A stretch of DNA of 32,398 bases from Sphingomicrobium sp. (GCA_035758865.1 DASTVY010000236.1:1-32398), one strand, 5' to 3'. Shown: positions 22,354-32,398, counted from the stretch's first letter. Program-made: numbers and translations. Notes: a model not told the origin generated them from the sequence alone.

Positions 22354-23181
22354 ATGTCCGCGACCAATAGCATTAGCCCTGAAAAACTTGCCCGTTTGAT
22401 CGGCACTTCCAACTGCCCGACGATCATCGATGTCCGTCCCAACTGCGACCAACTGTTGCCGGCGTCCATCGGGCGATCGGCAGACGATGTGAACGAATGG
22501 GCGCCTAACTTTTCCGGCCAAAAAATCGTTGTCAGTTGCGTCCACGGCAAGGAACGGAGTGCCGGCGTCGCGGCCATCCTTCGCAGCGAAGGCGCTGACG
22601 CAGAGATACTCGAAGGCGGATTTTCCGCGTGGCGCGATGCCGGACTTCCCGTGGTCGACGCCGCGAAACTGCCCGATCGGGATCCACTGGGCCGAACCGT
22701 CTGGGTCACGCGGGCGAGGCCCAAGGTCGACCGGATCGCATGCCCCTGGCTCATCCGCCGCTTCGTCGATCCGACGGCGGTCTTCCTGTTCGTCACACCG
22801 AGCGAAGTCGCGGGTGTGGCCGAGCGCTTCGGCGCAACGCCATTCGATGTCGACGGGGTGTTCTGGAGCCACCGCGGAGAGAAATGCACCTTCGACACGA
22901 TGGTCGAGGAATTCGGCCTGGCCGCGATCGATGCTTTGGCGCGCCTCGCCGTGATCGTTCGCGGGGCCGACACAGCACGGCCGGAAATCGCACCGCAGGC
23001 GGCCGGGCTGCTGGCCGCGTCACTTGGTCTGTCTCGGATCTATTCCGATGATCTGGAGCAGCTTGAGGCCGGGATGCTGATTTACGATGCCTTTTACCGC
23101 TGGTGTCGGGACGCGGTCGACGAAACCCATGACTGGGTTTCGCACAAGCCCAGGCAAGCACGGCAGCCAGTGACCGCATAA
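22354..23181 (+). CDS. chrB: Chromate resistance protein ChrB-like (rhodanese domain plus chromate-resistance domain)
   Basis: IIDVR...CVHGKERS...LEGGFSAW rhodanese domain, then WVTRARPKVDRIACPWLIRRFVD, FWSHRGEKCTFD, IVRGADT, YDAFYRW. Confidence 0.9.
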   Translation: MSATNSISPEKLARLIGTSNCPTIIDVRPNCDQLLPASIGRSADDVNEWAPNFSGQKIVVSCVHGKERSAGVAAILRSEGADAEILEGGFSAWRDAGLPVVDAAKLPDRDPLGRTVWVTRARPKVDRIACPWLIRRFVDPTAVFLFVTPSEVAGVAERFGATPFDVDGVFWSHRGEKCTFDTMVEEFGLAAIDALARLAVIVRGADTARPEIAPQAAGLLAASLGLSRIYSDDLEQLEAGMLIYDAFYRWCRDAVDETHDWVSHKPRQARQPVTA

Positions 23182-24377
23182 TGGCCGCGGCGGAGCCGAC
23201 CCTGGCGGCGATCTTCATGCGCTTCCTGCGCTTCGGCCTGCTCGCCTGGGGTGGGCCGGTAGCGCAAATCGCGATGGTCAAGCGTGAGCTGGTAGAGGAA
23301 GAACAGTGGCTGACACCTGAGCGCTTCAATCGGCTGCTGGCCGTCTATCAGGTGCTGCCTGGGCCTGAAGCGCATGAGCTCTGTGTCCACCTCGGCATGA
23401 TGAAGCGCGGACGGCTCGGCGGTCTCCTTGCTGGCCTCGGATTCATGCTGCCCGGCCTGCTCCTCATCCTCGCGCTGGCCTGGATCTATCAGCGGCTTGA
23501 CCTCGACCGGCCGCTGATCGCGGCAATTTTCCTCGGCATCCAGATCGGAGTCATCGCGCTCATCATCCGTGCCGTGCATCGCATCGGCGAGCATGTGCTG
23601 ACCGACAAATGGCTGTGGGCGGTCGGCATTTCCAGCGCAACCGCCTCACTGCTTGGCGTCAGCTTCTGGATCGTCCTGCCCGTCGCAGGGCTCACCTATG
23701 CATTACTCGCCGCTGAGCGCTACTGGCTGGCAGCCGCGGTGGCTCTGGCCGGCATTGCCGCCGCCTTCTGGTTCACCGGTCCGGTCGAGGGACTGACCGG
23801 CGCGGCCGGTGCGAGCGCCGTAACGCCGGGTTCGGTCAGCGCGCTGGCGCTGTTCGTCTCCGGACTCAAGGCGGGCCTTCTGACCTTTGGCGGCGCCTAC
23901 ACCGCCATTCCCTTCGTGCGGAACGACGCAGTGGGCCGCGGCTGGATTGGTGAAGGCCAGTTCTTGGACAGCCTGGCGCTGGGTGGGATCATCCCTGCCC
24001 CGCTGATCATTTTCGCGACCTTCGTCGGTTATCTTGCCGGAGGCCTGGCCGGAGCGCTGGCAATCACTGCCGGCATCTTCCTGCCCGCCTTTTCCTTTGC
24101 GCTTTTGTTCTACGACCGGCTGGAGCGAGTGATTGAGGATGAGCGGCTGCATAGCCTGCTGGAAGGCGTCGCGGCAGGCGTCGTCGGGCTGATCGCGGTA
24201 ACCGCGCTGCAGCTCGGATGGAATGTGGCGCAGTCGGTGCCATCACCCCTCGTCGCGGCGATAATTTTCGGCGCCTCGCTGGCGCTGCTCTACCTGTGGA
24301 AGTCCAAGCTCAACGTGCTTGCGGTCGTTGCCGGGGCCGCGATCCTCGGCACCTTGTTCGCGTTGGGCGCGCCGTGA
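23181..24377 (+). CDS. chrA: Chromate efflux transporter ChrA (CHR family, long-chain)
   Basis: Two homologous halves (LAWGGPVAQI...QVLPGP; LTFGGAY...IIPAP), multiple TM helices; TAATG coupling to chrB. Confidence 0.93.
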   Translation: MAAAEPTLAAIFMRFLRFGLLAWGGPVAQIAMVKRELVEEEQWLTPERFNRLLAVYQVLPGPEAHELCVHLGMMKRGRLGGLLAGLGFMLPGLLLILALAWIYQRLDLDRPLIAAIFLGIQIGVIALIIRAVHRIGEHVLTDKWLWAVGISSATASLLGVSFWIVLPVAGLTYALLAAERYWLAAAVALAGIAAAFWFTGPVEGLTGAAGASAVTPGSVSALALFVSGLKAGLLTFGGAYTAIPFVRNDAVGRGWIGEGQFLDSLALGGIIPAPLIIFATFVGYLAGGLAGALAITAGIFLPAFSFALLFYDRLERVIEDERLHSLLEGVAAGVVGLIAVTALQLGWNVAQSVPSPLVAAIIFGASLALLYLWKSKLNVLAVVAGAAILGTLFALGAP

Positions 24378-27030: not shown

Positions 27031-27585
27031 ATGACCATTCAATCGGACCGCTGGATTCGCGACCAGGCTCTCAATCACCGTATGATCGAACCGTTCGTCG
27101 AGGCGCAGCGGCGCGAAGGCTGTATCAGCTACGGCCTGTCCTCTTATGGCTATGACGCGCGCGTTGCCGACGAATTCAAGATATTCACCAACGTCGACAG
27201 CGCGACCGTGGACCCCAAGGACTTCGCGTCCAACAGCTTCGTCGACCGCCAGACCGATGTTTGCATAATTCCACCGAATAGTTTTGCGCTCGCCCGGACG
27301 GTCGAATATTTCAGGGTTCCCGAGGACGTGCTGGTGATCTGCCTCGGCAAATCGACCTACGCCCGCTGCGGGATCATCGTGAACGTTACGCCCCTGGAAC
27401 CTGGCTGGGAGGGGCATGTGACGCTGGAATTCTCCAACACCACGCCCCTTCCCGCCAAGATCTATGCCAATGAAGGCGCGTGCCAGTTCCTGTTCCTGAA
27501 GGGCAATGAACGGTGCGAGATCAGTTACGCCGACCGTGCCGGCAAATATATGGGGCAACGTGGAGTGACATTGCCCAAGCTCTGA
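27031..27585 (+). CDS. dcd: dCTP deaminase
   Basis: [60 protein letters not shown]. Confidence 0.97.
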
Positions 27586-27711: not shown

Positions 27712-28860
27712 ATGGCCGATCCCACCGATCCCGTATTACCACCTGCCGACCCCACCGATCCCGTATCGCCACTCGCCGAAACGACCGCGGCAGGGCCCGC
27801 CCCCGGCATAGGTCTAGCGATCTCCGGTGGCGGTTACCGCGCAATGCTGTTCCATCTGGGGTCGTTCCTTCGCCTGTTCGAGGTTGGGCTGCTGAAGAAG
27901 CTCGACCGAATTTCCAGCGTCTCCGGAGGGTCGATAACCTCCGCTAAGATCGCGCTTGAATGGGACCGGCTGGGAAGTCGGGATCACTTCGTCGAACATG
28001 TCGTCGGCCCGATCCGTGGGCTCGCCGGGACGACGATCGACGTTCCCTCGGTCGCCGGAGGAGTCCTGCTTCCCGGAAGCGTGGCCGACCGAATCTCCGG
28101 CTTCTATCGAAGGCATTTGTTCGGCGACGCCACGCTTCAGGACCTGCCCGACGAGCCGCGCTTCGTGATCAACGCGACCAGCGTCGAAACGGGCAGCCTG
28201 TGGCGCTTTTCGAAACCCTACATGCGCGACTGGCGCGTCGGCAAAGTCGATAATCCCGATGTCCCGCTTGCCGATGCGGTCACTGCATCCTCCGCTTTCC
28301 CGCCGGTGCTCTCCCCCTTTGTGCTCGAAGTCGATCCCGCGGATTTCTCGGTGGTCGAGCAAGGCGTCGACGCGAAGTTCTTGTCGGACATCTCGCTGAC
28401 CGACGGCGGCGTTTACGACAATCTGGGCCTGGAGACGGTGTGGAAGCGCTATCAGACCGTGCTCGTCTCCGATGCTGGCGGGCTGCTCGCCCTCGATCCA
28501 TCGCCGCCGGCCGACTGGGCGCGGCACGCGCTGCGGGCAATTGAAATCATCCATGGCCAGGTTTCGTCAGTGCGAAAACGTCAGGTCATCGCTTCCTATC
28601 AGTCCGGCGAAAGGAGCGGCGCCTATTGGGGGATTGCGTCCGATATCGGCCGTTACCAACTACCCGATGCCCTCCCCGCGCCGCTCGGTCGGACGCGGCA
28701 GCTGGCGGAAACCGCGACACGGCTCAAGCGCCTCGGCAAGGATGACCAGGAACGGCTGATCAACTGGGGCTACGCGGTGTGCGACGCTGCAATCCGCAAA
28801 CATTATCCAGAGGCGAGCGCCCAGGCACCGGGTGGATACCCTTACCCGATCGGAGTTTGA
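27712..28860 (+). CDS. Patatin-like phospholipase
   Basis: 382 aa from ATG 27712 (AAGGGGAAG SD). Oxyanion loop SGGGYRA, nucleophile SVSGG (Ser71), ASSAFP, catalytic DGGVYDN (Asp231). Confidence 0.9.
   Translation: MADPTDPVLPPADPTDPVSPLAETTAAGPAPGIGLAISGGGYRAMLFHLGSFLRLFEVGLLKKLDRISSVSGGSITSAKIALEWDRLGSRDHFVEHVVGPIRGLAGTTIDVPSVAGGVLLPGSVADRISGFYRRHLFGDATLQDLPDEPRFVINATSVETGSLWRFSKPYMRDWRVGKVDNPDVPLADAVTASSAFPPVLSPFVLEVDPADFSVVEQGVDAKFLSDISLTDGGVYDNLGLETVWKRYQTVLVSDAGGLLALDPSPPADWARHALRAIEIIHGQVSSVRKRQVIASYQSGERSGAYWGIASDIGRYQLPDALPAPLGRTRQLAETATRLKRLGKDDQERLINWGYAVCDAAIRKHYPEASAQAPGGYPYPIGV
27715..27774 (+). repeat. In-frame 30-nt tandem duplication (2 copies)
   Basis: GCCGATCCCACCGATCCCGTATTACCACCT / GCCGACCCCACCGATCCCGTATCGCCACTC, encoding ADPTDPVLPP-ADPTDPVSPL. 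Confidence 0.9.
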
Positions 28861-28863
28861 TCG

Positions 28864-30870
28864 ATGGCCCACCGTCTTCCGCCACAGATCATCGATCTGC
28901 TCTTGCTTGGGGCTCCGGAACGCCGTCGCCAGCTCCAAGACCTGCCGATCCTCGGCGACGTGTGGAGCCACGTTGCTGACAAGCCCGACCTTCCGCCGGA
29001 TCTATTGATCATCCCCGCTAGGGGACATGCTACGGCCGACGTTGCGCGCTTGCTCAAGGCGCCGGGCGAGAGGCATAACCGAGGTCGCGGCGATATCAGC
29101 GTTGCCTTCATCGAAGGCATTATCGTTGCCACCTTATCCCTTCGCGACCTCGTCGAATTTGTGATCCCTGCCACCAAATGGTGGAAGGGCATCGAGGATG
29201 ATTGGCAGCCGGAGGCGAAGCGGACATCTCCGAAACTCGCGCAATGGATTTCCGCCGAAATCCGCAACCTCCTGCCAAGACCGGCCGAGATTAGCCCGGC
29301 CGACGTCAGCCGCCGGCGCGCCGAATTTGCTCCAAACAGCAGTGCCGAAGCGGCGGCACGAATGGGCGCACTGATCGGAACTTTCGTCGCTGCCCAAGTT
29401 GAGATGAAGGAACATCCGGAACGTCAGACTCCAAACTGGAGCGACTTTGGCCCGGATCCACAGCGCATTTTCCGGGCGGTTGTGGATTTCTTCGAGCCCG
29501 AACGGATTGCCCGCCTCGGCGTCAGCGCGCTTCAAACCATCTTCGATAATTACCATGGGCTCAAACGGGACGGTGCCGATCATCGGGGCGCGATCTTTCA
29601 GGTCACGACCAACCGCGTTGCCGAAATGGCCCTCTGGGATTCGGTACCTGCAATCAAGGCCGATGCAGCGCGAACCTTATTCTCGATCAGCTGTGAAAAG
29701 CTCGGCTGGGCCGTGATCGACAGCGGCATCGACCACCGGCACCCGGCTTTCCGGGATCAAAAACACGCTCACAAGGTCATCACGGAGTCTGGAGTCCTCA
29801 AGGCCGACCCCGACAAATCGCCCTACAAAGAGCAAATGCGGCATCGCATCCGTGCGGCGTTCGACTTTACCCGAATTCGCGCCATCCTTGGCGTCAAGGA
29901 TAGCGAAATCCCGGCGATTGGCGCGGCAATTGCGGCCAATAATGGACTGGCAAAGCGCGATTGTACCCAGCGCCTCAAAAAGATCATCGATGACCGCGAC
30001 AACGGCCGGCCAGTCGATTGGCGGAACGTGGAGCCGCTGGTTTCATTGGATCTGGCCGTGGCGCCCCCTCCCGAGGTCGTCCACGGCACTCACGTCGCCG
30101 GCATAATTGGCGCTGACTGGCAGGAAAGAAACACCGTCACTGGTAATTTCGACGTCCGGATTCAGGGTGTCTGCCCCGACATACGCCTCTACGATTTTCG
30201 GGTGCTGGGAAGTGATCGCGGCGATAGCGAATTCGCCGTCTCGGCGGCGCTTCAGTTCATCCGTTATTTCAACGAGGCGCTCGGTTTCCAGCGGATCCAC
30301 GGGGTCAATATGAGCCTTGCGATCCGCCATAATGTGCGAAACTACGCATGCGGCCAGACCCCGGTGTGCAAGCAGGCAGAGAGTCTGGTCGCCAACGGCG
30401 TGGTCGTCGTCGCTGCGGCGGGGAATCGCGGCTATCTGCAATACCAGCTCGCCGACCAGTCGGTTTACGAGGGCTATGCCGCGTCAAGCATAACCGACCC
30501 CGGCAATGCCGACGGGGTAATCACCGTCGGCGCAACCCATCGCAGCGCGCCGCACACCTATGGCGTCAGCTTCTTCTCTAGCCGTGGGCCGACCGGCGAC
30601 GGTCGACAAAAGCCCGATCTGCTTGCGCCTGGCGAGAAGATCACGAGCTGCGTCGGTTCGGACCGCGACGATGCAATGGACGGCACCAGCATGGCTGCCC
30701 CGCACGTCAGCGGGGCCGCGGCACTGCTGATGGCGCGCCACGAGGAGCTGAAGGGCAATGCGCCTCGAATCAAGGAAATCCTTTGCAACACGGCGACCGA
30801 TCTGAGGCGCGAGCGACAGTTCCAGGGCCACGGAATGGTCGACGTTCTGCGCGCGATTCAATCAATCTGA
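28864..30870 (+). CDS. S8 family subtilisin-like serine peptidase, no signal peptide, long N-terminal region
   Basis: Triad VID286SG, H407GTHVAG, GTS609MAAPHV; oxyanion AAAGN521; SSRGP..DGRQKPDLLAPG. Confidence 0.93.
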   Translation: MAHRLPPQIIDLLLLGAPERRRQLQDLPILGDVWSHVADKPDLPPDLLIIPARGHATADVARLLKAPGERHNRGRGDISVAFIEGIIVATLSLRDLVEFVIPATKWWKGIEDDWQPEAKRTSPKLAQWISAEIRNLLPRPAEISPADVSRRRAEFAPNSSAEAAARMGALIGTFVAAQVEMKEHPERQTPNWSDFGPDPQRIFRAVVDFFEPERIARLGVSALQTIFDNYHGLKRDGADHRGAIFQVTTNRVAEMALWDSVPAIKADAARTLFSISCEKLGWAVIDSGIDHRHPAFRDQKHAHKVITESGVLKADPDKSPYKEQMRHRIRAAFDFTRIRAILGVKDSEIPAIGAAIAANNGLAKRDCTQRLKKIIDDRDNGRPVDWRNVEPLVSLDLAVAPPPEVVHGTHVAGIIGADWQERNTVTGNFDVRIQGVCPDIRLYDFRVLGSDRGDSEFAVSAALQFIRYFNEALGFQRIHGVNMSLAIRHNVRNYACGQTPVCKQAESLVANGVVVVAAAGNRGYLQYQLADQSVYEGYAASSITDPGNADGVITVGATHRSAPHTYGVSFFSSRGPTGDGRQKPDLLAPGEKITSCVGSDRDDAMDGTSMAAPHVSGAAALLMARHEELKGNAPRIKEILCNTATDLRRERQFQGHGMVDVLRAIQSI

Positions 30871-30880
30871 GGAGCCGGCG

Positions 30881-32104
30881 ATGCAATTTGAATTTCTTCC
30901 GGCGTTTCAGGGCGACTGCTTCCTGATCCATGCGGGCACCAAGGCCAAACCTGTGCTGATCCTGGTCGATGGCGGGCCGGGCGGCACCTATAATAAGCAT
31001 CTCAAGCCGAGGTTGATGCAGCTTCGCGACGAACGCGAGTTGGACGAGTTCACCCCGCTTGTGATCAATCTGGTGATCGTCAGCCACGTCGACGATGATC
31101 ATATCAATGGCATCGTCGAGCTGTTCCGTGACATCCGCAAAGCGAAAATGAACGGGGATCCGCCCCTCTTCACAGTGCTTGGCCTGTGGCACAACAGTTT
31201 CGACGAGATCATCGGCAATGATGAGGTCAACGTAGCGACGGCGCAGTTCGGTACCGCCTCGATCGCGCCGGTCATGGCCGATTCGGAGAGCCACGAGCAA
31301 TTCGATGCAGCTTTGATCTTGCAGAGCATTGCCCAAGGCAACGAACTTCGCGACCTGGCCAATTCCGACGAGTTGCAGATACCGATCAACGACGGTTTCG
31401 GCGGGCTAATCAAAAGTTCGCCTGGCAAGAAGGCCGTCCGTAAGATCGGCGGCGTTAGTTTCACTGTGATCGCTCCGCGGGCACCTGAGCTGGTCAAACT
31501 TCAGAAAGATCATGACAAGTGGCTGAAAGAGCAAAAGAAAGCCGGAAAAGTGATCACGCCGGGCTCGATGCTGCAGGCGATGCTGGACACGGCCGTTCCC
31601 AATCTTTCGAGCATCGTTCTTCTTGCGGATGACGGCAAGCGAACGGCACTCCTCACCGGGGACGCGCGAGCGGACTTCATCGTCACCGGCGCGGAAGAGA
31701 TCGGGCTGATCGCAAAGGGGGCCACGCTCGACGTAGACCTGTTCAAGTTGCCGCACCACGGAAGCGACCGGAACGTCGATCCATCGAGCCTGCAGCGAAT
31801 TCGTGCGAAGCAGCATTTATTCACGGGGAACGGCCTGTTCGGCAATCCCGAACGTGCCACGTTCGAGATGTTGCGCGACGCTCGGCCCGGCGCTGAGATG
31901 GAGCTCTACCTGACCTACGACATCGCTTCGATCGACCCGACCCGGAAGGTCGTACACGCGCAGGAACGGCAGAAGGCGATCAACAGGGGCAAACCGCCGG
32001 GCCCCGTGTGGTCCGATTCTGCCAATGCTCTGGCGACGCTGGTGCCCAATCTTCCGAATTCGATGAAGGTGATCCAGCCCACCGGGCCTGCGGTGAAGCT
32101 TTAA
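30881..32104 (+). CDS. MBL-fold metallo-hydrolase, ComEC/Avs1a-like (putative nuclease)
   Basis: QGDCFLI, LVDGG, SHVDDDHING (HxDxDH), NLSSIV, LLTGDA, KLPHHGS; GAGGAG SD; no signal peptide or TM segment. Confidence 0.85.
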   Translation: MQFEFLPAFQGDCFLIHAGTKAKPVLILVDGGPGGTYNKHLKPRLMQLRDERELDEFTPLVINLVIVSHVDDDHINGIVELFRDIRKAKMNGDPPLFTVLGLWHNSFDEIIGNDEVNVATAQFGTASIAPVMADSESHEQFDAALILQSIAQGNELRDLANSDELQIPINDGFGGLIKSSPGKKAVRKIGGVSFTVIAPRAPELVKLQKDHDKWLKEQKKAGKVITPGSMLQAMLDTAVPNLSSIVLLADDGKRTALLTGDARADFIVTGAEEIGLIAKGATLDVDLFKLPHHGSDRNVDPSSLQRIRAKQHLFTGNGLFGNPERATFEMLRDARPGAEMELYLTYDIASIDPTRKVVHAQERQKAINRGKPPGPVWSDSANALATLVPNLPNSMKVIQPTGPAVKL

Positions 32105-32120
32105 TCGCCAACCGCGATTG

Positions 32121-32398
32121 TCAGGCCGGCTGCTTCTTCCGTTCGGCCCGTTCGGTTTTTGCCGCATCGTGCTCGAGAAGCTCCCGGGCACGCAGGATCA
32201 TCTCCACCCAATCGTGGAACGCATGGGCCAACTTGGTCACAACCTCCTTCAGCGGCCCTTCCTTCAAGCACCCGTCCGCATCGAAGCTGTCGTCCGAAAC
32301 GTGACCTAGATAGGCTTCGGGTTGCTGCATCACCGGCATGTTGAGGAATACGCAGGCCTGTCGCAGCTGGTGATTGGCCCCGAATCCACCGATTGCGC
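32121..32398 (-). CDS. NAD(P)H-dependent FMN reductase (ChrR/YieF flavoprotein family), 3' part only; 5' end outside the window
   Basis: The frame stays open to the window edge. Manual translation gives ...AIGGFGANHQLRQACVFLNMPVMQQPEAYLG..., the ChrR/YieF family signature. The ORF track shows only the last 72 aa. Confidence 0.85.
   Translation of the reverse strand, partial: AIGGFGANHQLRQACVFLNMPVMQQPEAYLGHVSDDSFDADGCLKEGPLKEVVTKLAHAFHDWVEMILRARELLEHDAAKTERAERKKQPA

What the first reader, a model, noticed from the sequence alone, without database searches (positions are those of the whole stretch)
27712..32104. Patatin phospholipase + cytoplasmic S8 subtilase + Avs1a-like MBL hydrolase operon: candidate undescribed protease-gated defence/conflict system
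Seen in sequence: three co-oriented genes separated by only 3 nt and 10 nt, sitting between housekeeping dcd and a convergent FMN reductase. All catalytic residues are intact, and none of the proteins has a signal peptide or TM helix, so a secreted nutritional protease/lipase role is unlikely. Established: each domain occurs in anti-phage systems (patatin CapV in CBASS, S8 IetS in IetAS, MBL hydrolase beside a protease in AVAST type 1). Their usual sensors (CD-NTase, AAA ATPase, STAND NTPase) are absent here. Inference: the S8 protein acts as both sensor and activator, proteolytically unleashing a nuclease and a membrane-damaging phospholipase. I do not recall this trio as a named system, but I cannot search.
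Basis: partly seen in the sequence, partly recalled or inferred. Interest (0 to 1): 0.85.

Follow-up and report, generated by a model that had tools for sequence, protein, structure and literature searches.

The report
Subtilase-gated nuclease with swappable lipase
Three tightly linked genes encode a subtilisin-type protease, a nuclease-type enzyme that is likely switched on when the protease clips it, and an optional lipase, together a probable anti-phage suicide cassette whose protease-nuclease pairing has been noted in print but apparently never tested.

Summary
In detail: patatin (27712-28860), S8 subtilase (28864-30870) and MBL hydrolase (30881-32104), 3 and 10 nt apart, catalytic residues intact, in a variable slot between dcd and an FMN reductase. 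The fixed core is S8→MBL (39 of 39 informative metagenome loci). It fits the subtilisin-linked 'Clade 3' of protease-gated MBL nucleases named bioinformatically by Evans et al. 2025; the members tested in the papers read use trypsin or caspase. The modelled MBL has two flexible insertions where the known gating loops lie; the S8 has its own prodomain; no sensor gene recurs. Patatin is optional (33 of 111 loci) but long-standing: 2-4 nt spacer, scattered over the S8 tree. It also stands alone at dcd in 3 of 150 genus genomes. What looks new: the same patatin lineage also sits with M4-like metalloprotease-MBL, caspase-MBL and 6A-MBL modules, and a Tle1-type lipase takes its place beside two sister S8s. 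So the lipase looks like an interchangeable co-effector, not a dedicated S8 substrate. Verdict: new, untested variant of a known kind; defence role inferred, not shown. Interest 0.5.

The parts
27031..27585 (+). dcd, dCTP deaminase; housekeeping left flank, not part of the cassette
   Evidence: PF22769; found in 136 of 150 genus genomes
27712..28860 (+). Patatin-like phospholipase, 382 aa (GGGxR, SxS71xG, D231GG); optional co-effector
   Evidence: directly upstream of this S8 clade in 33 of 111 informative loci
28852..28855 (+). GGAG ribosome-binding-like site for the S8 gene, inside the last patatin codons; 3-nt spacer follows the stop
   Evidence: sequence; spacer 2-4 nt in 32 of 38 homologous junctions
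28864..30870 (+). S8 subtilase without signal peptide, 668 aa; triad D286/H407/S609, oxyanion N521
28864..29643 (+). Predicted prodomain (aa 1-260) with a variable helical insertion (aa 105-243, 25% mean identity to homologues); candidate autoinhibitory and sensing part
   Evidence: model aligns over this region to pro-forms ProN-Tk-SP and pro-subtilisin E, mature enzymes align from about 261; Csp prodomain only a lead at 0.86
29749..30063 (+). Second variable helical insertion inside the catalytic domain (aa 296-400, 35% mean identity against 73% for aa 401-668)
30881..32104 (+). ComEC-fold MBL hydrolase, 407 aa, predicted gated pro-nuclease; H69, D71, D73, H74, N241, D261, H292, H293 invariant; F320 in place of the usual His
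31208..31315 (+). MBL insertion 1 (aa 110-145, pLDDT 47-59 over 111-140), conserved F123-G124; candidate cut site
31541..31600 (+). MBL insertion 2 (aa 221-240, pLDDT 61-71), L231-x-x-M234 (F/Y in 45 of 48 rows), just before invariant N241; candidate cut site
32121..32398 (-). 3' part of an NADPH-dependent FMN reductase, convergent right flank, cut by the window end

Best explanation
This is an accessory three-gene cassette in which a subtilase without signal peptide, predicted to be held inactive by its own prodomain, likely matures on an infection cue and clips two flexible loops of the neighbouring MBL protein, which would release a DNase that probably kills the infected cell, while the patatin is an optional, likely parallel membrane-attacking co-effector. 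Shown here: gene layout, intact motifs, fixed S8→MBL linkage, patchy distribution, purifying selection, place of the MBL in a subtilase-linked clade, optional and swappable lipase. Predicted from models: the prodomain, the two loops. Carried over from tested homologues (VcMBL, HamM, Avs1a, CanC): double cleavage, zinc-dependent DNase, abortive infection. Inferred only: the cut sites (near F123/G124 and after M234), that the S8's two variable helical insertions do the sensing, and the patatin's role.
For: MBL directly downstream of this S8 clade in 39 of 39 informative metagenome loci out of 120, and in all other fetched loci with the same N-terminal domain except L009; the more distant S8 subclade (L011-L033) has none. 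In a 35-row tree the MBLs sort by partner protease (7 changes, minimum 6) and the window's lies among 19 S8-linked rows, 95% support, as Clade 3 in PMC12642450. Best fold match is the ComEC nuclease domain; the two low-confidence insertions align with the insertion regions of an Avs1a that passes the NCBIfam cut-off; tested homologues are cut at Ile133/Ile232 and Ile134/Ile234. Both loops carry conserved aromatic residues (F123 35/48; F/Y234 45/48), which suits subtilisin P1 preference (recalled). Accessory: MBL in 1 of 150 genus genomes, with a different S8 and not at dcd; S8 in 4 of 400 order genomes; trio between IS elements on an S. meliloti plasmid. 11 of 12 differences in an independent contig pair are synonymous against a 25% share of possible changes. 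Defence-type neighbours (TIR, SIR2, Pycsar-type, FRG, Dsr1-like, HNH) in 10 of 32 distinct loci of 8 kb or more, by hand count. Lipase slot: patatin or Tle1-type beside sister S8s L192/L144 (100) and L242/L003 (98).
Against: No experiment on any subtilase-linked member was found. Two thirds of the long loci, and the window itself, lie among housekeeping genes, and no control set was scored, so defence enrichment is not tested. No match among viral contigs. GC3 of the three genes is ordinary for the genome (19th-44th percentile), so no sign of recent transfer. MBL F320 departs from a conserved His. Whether the loops cover the active site could not be examined. The S8 model is poor around the active site (pLDDT under 50 over 520-608 in part). 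Patatin is missing from 78 of 111 loci.
Confidence: 0.55

Rival explanations
1. One reading: the S8 cleaves and activates both the MBL and the patatin, a one-protease, two-zymogen death switch.
For: 2-4 nt spacer in 32 of 38 junctions and correlated distances patatin-S8 (rho 0.79, 15 loci); a lipase-like alpha/beta hydrolase is activated by double cleavage in PMC12642450; lipases of two folds occupy the slot.
Against: The same patatin lineage sits with S8, M4-like, caspase/CHAT and JAB-type enzymes, unrelated protease classes; S8-linked patatins are rejected as one clade (p-AU 1e-4), whereas the MBLs track their protease; intact stand-alone orthologues in G010, G029, G172.
Confidence: 0.15
2. 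The patatin is an independent passenger; only S8-MBL is a functional unit and the adjacency reflects shared insertion hot spots and inheritance.
For: Stand-alone at the same dcd site in 3 of 150 genus genomes, and these are the window patatin's nearest relatives (99/97); absent from 70% of S8-MBL loci; five distant homologues stand alone among housekeeping genes.
Against: Stereotyped spacer with embedded GGAG across distant taxa; label scattered over the S8 tree, at least 10 forced changes, which fits an old trio with repeated loss; an MBL within 6 kb in 11 of 12 plasmid patatin loci fetched (of 20 hits; mostly rhizobial, not independent).
Confidence: 0.13
3. The lipase acts upstream: on membrane disturbance it makes a lipid product that triggers maturation of the protease, so it is the sensor or amplifier, not a killer.
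For: Usually first in the operon; works with several protease classes; replaceable by another lipase fold; no other sensor recurs.
Against: Most S8-MBL loci lack any recognisable lipase; unrelated proteases would each need a lipid-sensing site; no direct evidence.
Confidence: 0.07
4. Not phage defence: a stress or lipid-catabolic unit, for instance the MBL acting as a phosphoesterase on products of the lipase.
For: Second-best fold match is the phosphorylcholine esterase Pce; many loci in housekeeping contexts; F320 in the window.
Against: MBL is fixed to the protease, not to the lipase; nearest characterised relatives are DNases of defence systems; sporadic distribution across phyla.
Confidence: 0.1

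Closest known systems
Clade 3 (subtilisin-associated) protease-MBL modules, Evans et al. 2025 (PMC12642450; parts 1-3 of 7 and passages read, figures not seen)
   Same: MBL-fold hydrolase encoded next to an S8 subtilisin-like protease; own tree gives the same split into trypsin-, caspase- and subtilase-linked MBLs.
   Different: In the text read only trypsin-clade MBLs were tested; 'patatin' and 'phospholipase' occur 0 times in the main text. Here the protease carries no fused STAND or helicase sensor and has its own prodomain.
Canu (caspase-nuclease), KaeCanABC, Tuck et al. 2025 (PMC12799240; passages read)
   Same: Stand-alone protease gene upstream of a gated MBL nuclease, no STAND sensor, three genes.
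   Different: Protease is a subtilase, not a caspase; no CanB between the two; third gene is a lipase. Canu-like loci with patatin (L263) or Tle1 (L276) were seen here.
AVAST type 1 Avs1a/Avs1b, Hachiman HamMAB, Lamassu hydrolase-protease (trypsin-MBL modules; PMC12799240, 10.1101/2025.09.03.673762, 10.64898/2026.08.25.746987; passages read)
   Same: Homologous MBL (PADLOC LmuA E 1e-44, Avs1a E 4e-28) with two insertions at equivalent places.
   Different: Opposite gene order, trypsin fused to a sensor, cut sites at Ile-Ser or KSS; none of the sensors is present here.
IetAS
   Same: Cytoplasmic S8 protease in a defence setting (recalled).
   Different: Only weak IetS scores (E 1e-6); no AAA ATPase partner in the window or recurring among homologous loci.
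CBASS CapV phospholipase effector
   Same: Patatin fold used as a membrane-attacking effector (passage in PMC13069673).
   Different: No CD-NTase in the operon; weak PADLOC score (E 1e-4); SxSxG nucleophile motif, with only weak PDB sequence matches (cPLA2, ExoU, VipD).

Membership tests
Protease-gated MBL module, Clade 3 (subtilisin-linked) | MBL homologous to Avs1a/HamM/CanC | tested here: met
   PADLOC LmuA, RTasMBL, Avs1a hits; alignment; tree
Protease-gated MBL module, Clade 3 (subtilisin-linked) | Encoded next to an intact S8 subtilisin-like protease | tested here: met
   10-nt gap, triad intact; 39 of 39 informative homologous loci
Protease-gated MBL module, Clade 3 (subtilisin-linked) | Falls in the published Clade 3 of the authors' tree | tested here: inconclusive
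   Their sequences and figure were not available; my own tree gives a subtilase-linked clade holding the window's MBL
Protease-gated MBL module (all clades) | Two insertions relative to ComEC | tested here: met
   Low-pLDDT stretches 111-140 and 221-240 at the insertion regions of Avs1a
Protease-gated MBL module (all clades) | Insertions occlude the active site and are cut by the partner protease, releasing DNase activity | not testable with these tools
   No coordinates or assays; shown only for trypsin and caspase members
AVAST type 1 | Avs1a above NCBIfam cut-off | tested here: not met
   125 bits against 420
AVAST type 1 | Trypsin-like Avs1b and STAND NTPase Avs1c | tested here: not met
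   Protease is S8; flanks are dcd and FMN reductase
Canu | Caspase-family protease upstream of the nuclease | tested here: not met
   PF00082, no Peptidase_C14 or CHAT hit
IetAS | AAA ATPase IetA beside an IetS-family S8 | tested here: not met
   No ATPase in the cassette; IetS 20-25 bits only
CBASS | CD-NTase cyclase in the operon | tested here: not met
   None among the flanking genes; no recurring cyclase among homologous S8 loci
6A-MBL | 6A-MBL enzyme and E2-E1-JAB partner above cut-off | tested here: not met
   31.8 bits against 220; no E2-E1-JAB gene. L264, which carries a related patatin, does pass

The most novel reading that the evidence does not exclude
Protease-gated MBL nucleases of the 'protease-first' type share an overlooked, interchangeable lipase slot: one patatin lineage, or a Tle1-fold substitute, plugs into subtilase-, M4-like metalloprotease-, caspase- and 6A-type MBL modules and adds membrane destruction (or a lipid trigger) to DNA destruction; the subtilase version needs no sensor gene because its prodomain with variable helical insertions is itself the phage receptor. 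This would add two protease classes (S8 zymogen, M4-like) and a two-arm killing logic to the known modules.
Probability: 0.3. Interest if true: 0.72.

Novelty: new variant of a known kind. Interest (0 to 1): 0.5.

Why it matters
The subtilisin branch is the one major clade of protease-gated MBL nucleases for which no test was found in the papers read. This locus is compact and has no separate sensor gene, so it makes an open question directly testable: how a stand-alone subtilase zymogen is triggered inside the cell. The comparison adds specific predictions (cut sites at aromatic residues rather than Ile or Ser; sensing in two variable insertions) and shows a lipase slot that moves between protease classes, including an M4-like metalloprotease-MBL pair not mentioned in the passages read.

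Tried and rejected
A complex prediction of S8 with patatin never ran because the queue was full, so binding is untested. The genome-contig scan used generic subtilase motifs, covered 2 of 64 parts and gave only 9 close loci (L003-L010 and L009 as the exception); the metagenome scan covered 28 of 64 parts. Viral contigs: nothing. Expression: run X19 (metatranscriptome) has six near-identical 151-183 nt contigs over S8 and MBL and X20 has 2-5% divergent pieces over patatin; a control on silent and housekeeping DNA could not be obtained, so this is not used as evidence. No empty-site joint appeared in the four runs laid. Promoter and terminator scan and repeat search: chance level, no attachment sites. 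Single-protein PDB search with the MBL: 0 hits; the profile found ComEC only. Atlas match of the S8 N-terminus to Csp prodomain and Y4kK_N at 0.86 is a lead only. A LytTR two-component pair upstream of the S8 in 8 loci was rejected as a sensor: four of them with full S8 fall in one starred S8 clade, so it reads as shared synteny. The longer patatin ORF from TTG 27604 was rejected: homologues begin near 27712 and the ATG has a ribosome-binding-like site. Fourteen patatin rows (six long branches, eight near-duplicates or partial/opposite-strand rows) were dropped before the AU test. Literature: nine searches found no paper on the trio.

Full report
OBSERVATION. The three ORFs, gaps, motifs and flanks are as described. 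The catalytic residues are invariant among close homologues, none of 57, 82 and 88 aligned homologues has a signal-like N-terminus by a simple screen, and an independent contig covers 27525-31218. In run X2, 11 of the 12 differences over the three genes are synonymous, against a 25% share of possible changes (transition bias not modelled). No curated family cut-off is met except Pfam domains: Avs1a 125 of 420 bits, 6A-MBL 32 of 220; PADLOC best hits are 'subtilase', LmuA, RTasMBL and Avs1a.

ACCESSORY STATUS. dcd was found in 136 of 150 genus genomes. In the 29 best dcd loci other than the window's own, none shows the S8 or MBL within 1.5 kb, and the FMN reductase follows at 30-63 nt in three of them, against 4.5 kb here. 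The MBL query matched 1 of 150 genus genomes (G001, with a different S8, on another contig). The S8 matched 1 of 100 relatives (G002, a distant subclade) and 4 of 400 order genomes. The patatin matched 3 of 150 genus genomes, each time alone between dcd and the FMN reductase. These tallies include unpublished G020 and G145 as negatives, and G020 gave locus L093. Many genomes are incomplete, so read 'not found in those searched'. GC3 is ordinary.

WHAT IS THE UNIT. A motif from the S8 N-terminus pulled 120 metagenome loci. The MBL lies directly downstream in 39 of 39 with enough sequence. Patatin lies directly upstream in 33 of 111 (30 of 93 clusters at 95%; L121 is only a weak 30-residue match). 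The full trio is in 12 of 34 loci informative on both sides. Named trios: Candidatus Binatia (L006), Teichococcus deserti (L007), an IS-flanked S. meliloti plasmid locus (L237) and G385. One exception to the pair: L009 has the S8 without MBL. More distant S8s that share only the catalytic domain (L011-L033) have neither partner. The patatin-S8 spacer is 2-4 nt in 32 of 38 junctions, many with GGAG in the last codons; among 15 trio loci, distances correlate (patatin-S8 0.79, patatin-MBL 0.77, S8-MBL 0.86), which shared host ancestry could also give. On the S8 tree the patatin label needs at least 10 changes and is not clustered (83 of 500 shuffles as low). I read this as an old trio with repeated loss of patatin (inference). 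No sensor family recurs among 335 neighbouring ORFs in 273 clusters; pYEATS-bearing SIR2 or FRG proteins precede the cassette in three loci.

THE LIPASE SLOT. Of 20 plasmid patatin hits I fetched 12; 11 have an MBL gene within 6 kb (mostly rhizobial plasmids, not independent). Partners: S8 (L237, L241); an unannotated 580-720 aa protein with HExxH and a downstream E, resembling M4/M36 peptidases (L258-L261, L265, L266, and G515, G360), with a longer MBL; a caspase locus (L263); a true 6A-MBL (L264). L259 and L260 lie beside CBASS genes; L260 and L261 are followed by DUF1837 and DEAD-helicase genes (Hachiman-like; label recalled). In 300 phylum genomes, 7 patatin hits: the two closer ones directly precede an MBL (one facing a CHAT protein), five distant ones stand alone. 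The window's patatin is sister to the three stand-alone dcd-site copies (99/97), and G385 (S8) is sister to G515 (M4-like) (100/99); S8-linked patatins are rejected as one clade (p-AU 1e-4, 24 of 38 rows). The MBLs, by contrast, sort by protease. A Tle1-fold (PF09994) gene takes the upstream place beside sister S8s twice: L144 (co-oriented) against L192, and L003 (divergent) against L242. It follows the MBL in L240 and, truncated, in L135, and precedes a caspase-X-MBL locus in L276.

MECHANISM. The MBL model (pLDDT 89) matches the ComEC nuclease domain best. H69, D71, D73, H74, N241, D261, H292 and H293 are invariant in 48 of 48 S8-linked rows (L003 and L243 are one locus); treating them as the metal site rests on recalled MBL chemistry. 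Two low-confidence insertions (111-140, 221-240) correspond to the insertion regions of Avs1a. In tested homologues these loops block the site and are cut twice: Ile133/Ile232 in VcMBL, Ile134/Ile234 in EpiAvs1a, KSS in short Hachiman MBLs, conserved Gly in CanC. Here they carry F123-G124 and L231-x-x-[F/Y; M in the window]234, fitting subtilisin's hydrophobic P4/P1 preference (recalled); these are my predicted cut sites. The S8 model aligns with pro-forms of subtilases from residue 21-45 onward, mature forms from about 261, so it is predicted to be a zymogen. Two helical insertions are far more variable (25% and 35% identity) than the catalytic core (73%), as a receptor surface might be; this is inference. 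The patatin, being shared between unrelated proteases and kept alone in relatives, more likely acts in parallel than as a dedicated S8 substrate. Against: no member tested; F320 replaces a conserved His; only 10 of 32 long loci have clear defence-type neighbours and no control was scored; none in viral contigs; no complex model could be run.

COMPARISON AND NOVELTY. Evans et al. (PMC12642450; parts 1-3 of 7 and passages read) name three MBL clades, with trypsin, caspase and S8 proteases, test only trypsin members, and mention further sensor associations in a figure I could not see. Tuck et al. (PMC12799240; passages; xlsx supplement searched with no hit for subtil/patatin; docx supplement too large to read) mention nucleases with 'other diverse' protease families in fig. 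S2. Two trypsin-MBL preprints (passages) and PMC13069673 (passages) have no subtilase case. Nine literature searches found no description of the trio; unseen figures and supplements of the first two papers may show the patatin or M4 link. Earlier notes of this scan report patatin beside caspase-MBL and 6A-MBL loci and an M4-MBL pair; they agree with what I had found but are not independent support. It works like canu and trypsin-MBL modules; it is not a member of AVAST, canu, IetAS, CBASS or 6A-MBL. Verdict: new variant of a known kind, interest 0.5; novel case (interchangeable lipase slot, self-sensing subtilase) probability 0.3, interest 0.72.

Noticed in passing
L259:7084-10656, L260:7085-10569, L261:7085-10587, L270:7477-10508, L271:2060-5616, L265, L266: Unannotated M4/M36-like HExxH metalloprotease followed by a long MBL (HEHxDH), with the same patatin family before or after; forms its own MBL clade; a fourth protease class for such modules.
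   Followed up: partly
L276:1238-6080 (NZ_CP096253.1): Tle1/DUF2235 - caspase - unknown - MBL, a canu-like locus with a Tle1 lipase, converging on an S8 plus AAA ATPase pair.
   Followed up: partly
L272:779-3933 (G001) and L275:2905-6350: A second, distinct S8-MBL pair (about 30% identical MBL) in the closest relative and on Rhizobium plasmids; in L275 preceded by an XendoU-LTD gene.
   Followed up: partly
L174:6257-7744; L238:8538-9638; L239:8463-9566: SIR2-pYEATS or FRG(-pYEATS) genes directly upstream of the (patatin-)S8-MBL cassette; possible recruited sensors or co-effectors.
   Followed up: no
L236:6466-13141 (NC_011758.1): S8-MBL directly behind a cyclase - E2 - cNMP-binding TIR (Pycsar-type) operon.
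   Followed up: no
L003:3283-17209 (same as L243): S8-MBL with divergent Tle1 inside an island of four TIR genes, SLOG, HEPN and a SIR2-like gene.
   Followed up: no
window 27715-27774: 30-nt tandem duplication (83% alike) at the patatin N-terminus, giving a doubled ADPTDPV motif that the 97% identical homologue set may or may not share.
   Followed up: no
dcd-FMN reductase interval, L083-L111: Variable slot in the genus: nearly empty, or small secreted proteins, kynureninase, DUF1508-like or stand-alone patatin.
   Followed up: partly
window 22354-24377: chrB-chrA chromate resistance pair (ChrB_C/rhodanese and chromate transporter); ordinary.
   Followed up: no
L286:6337-8602 (G574): Patatin directly followed by a caspase-clade MBL with no protease gene recognised in the 8.7 kb fetched (contig ends after the MBL).
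   Followed up: partly
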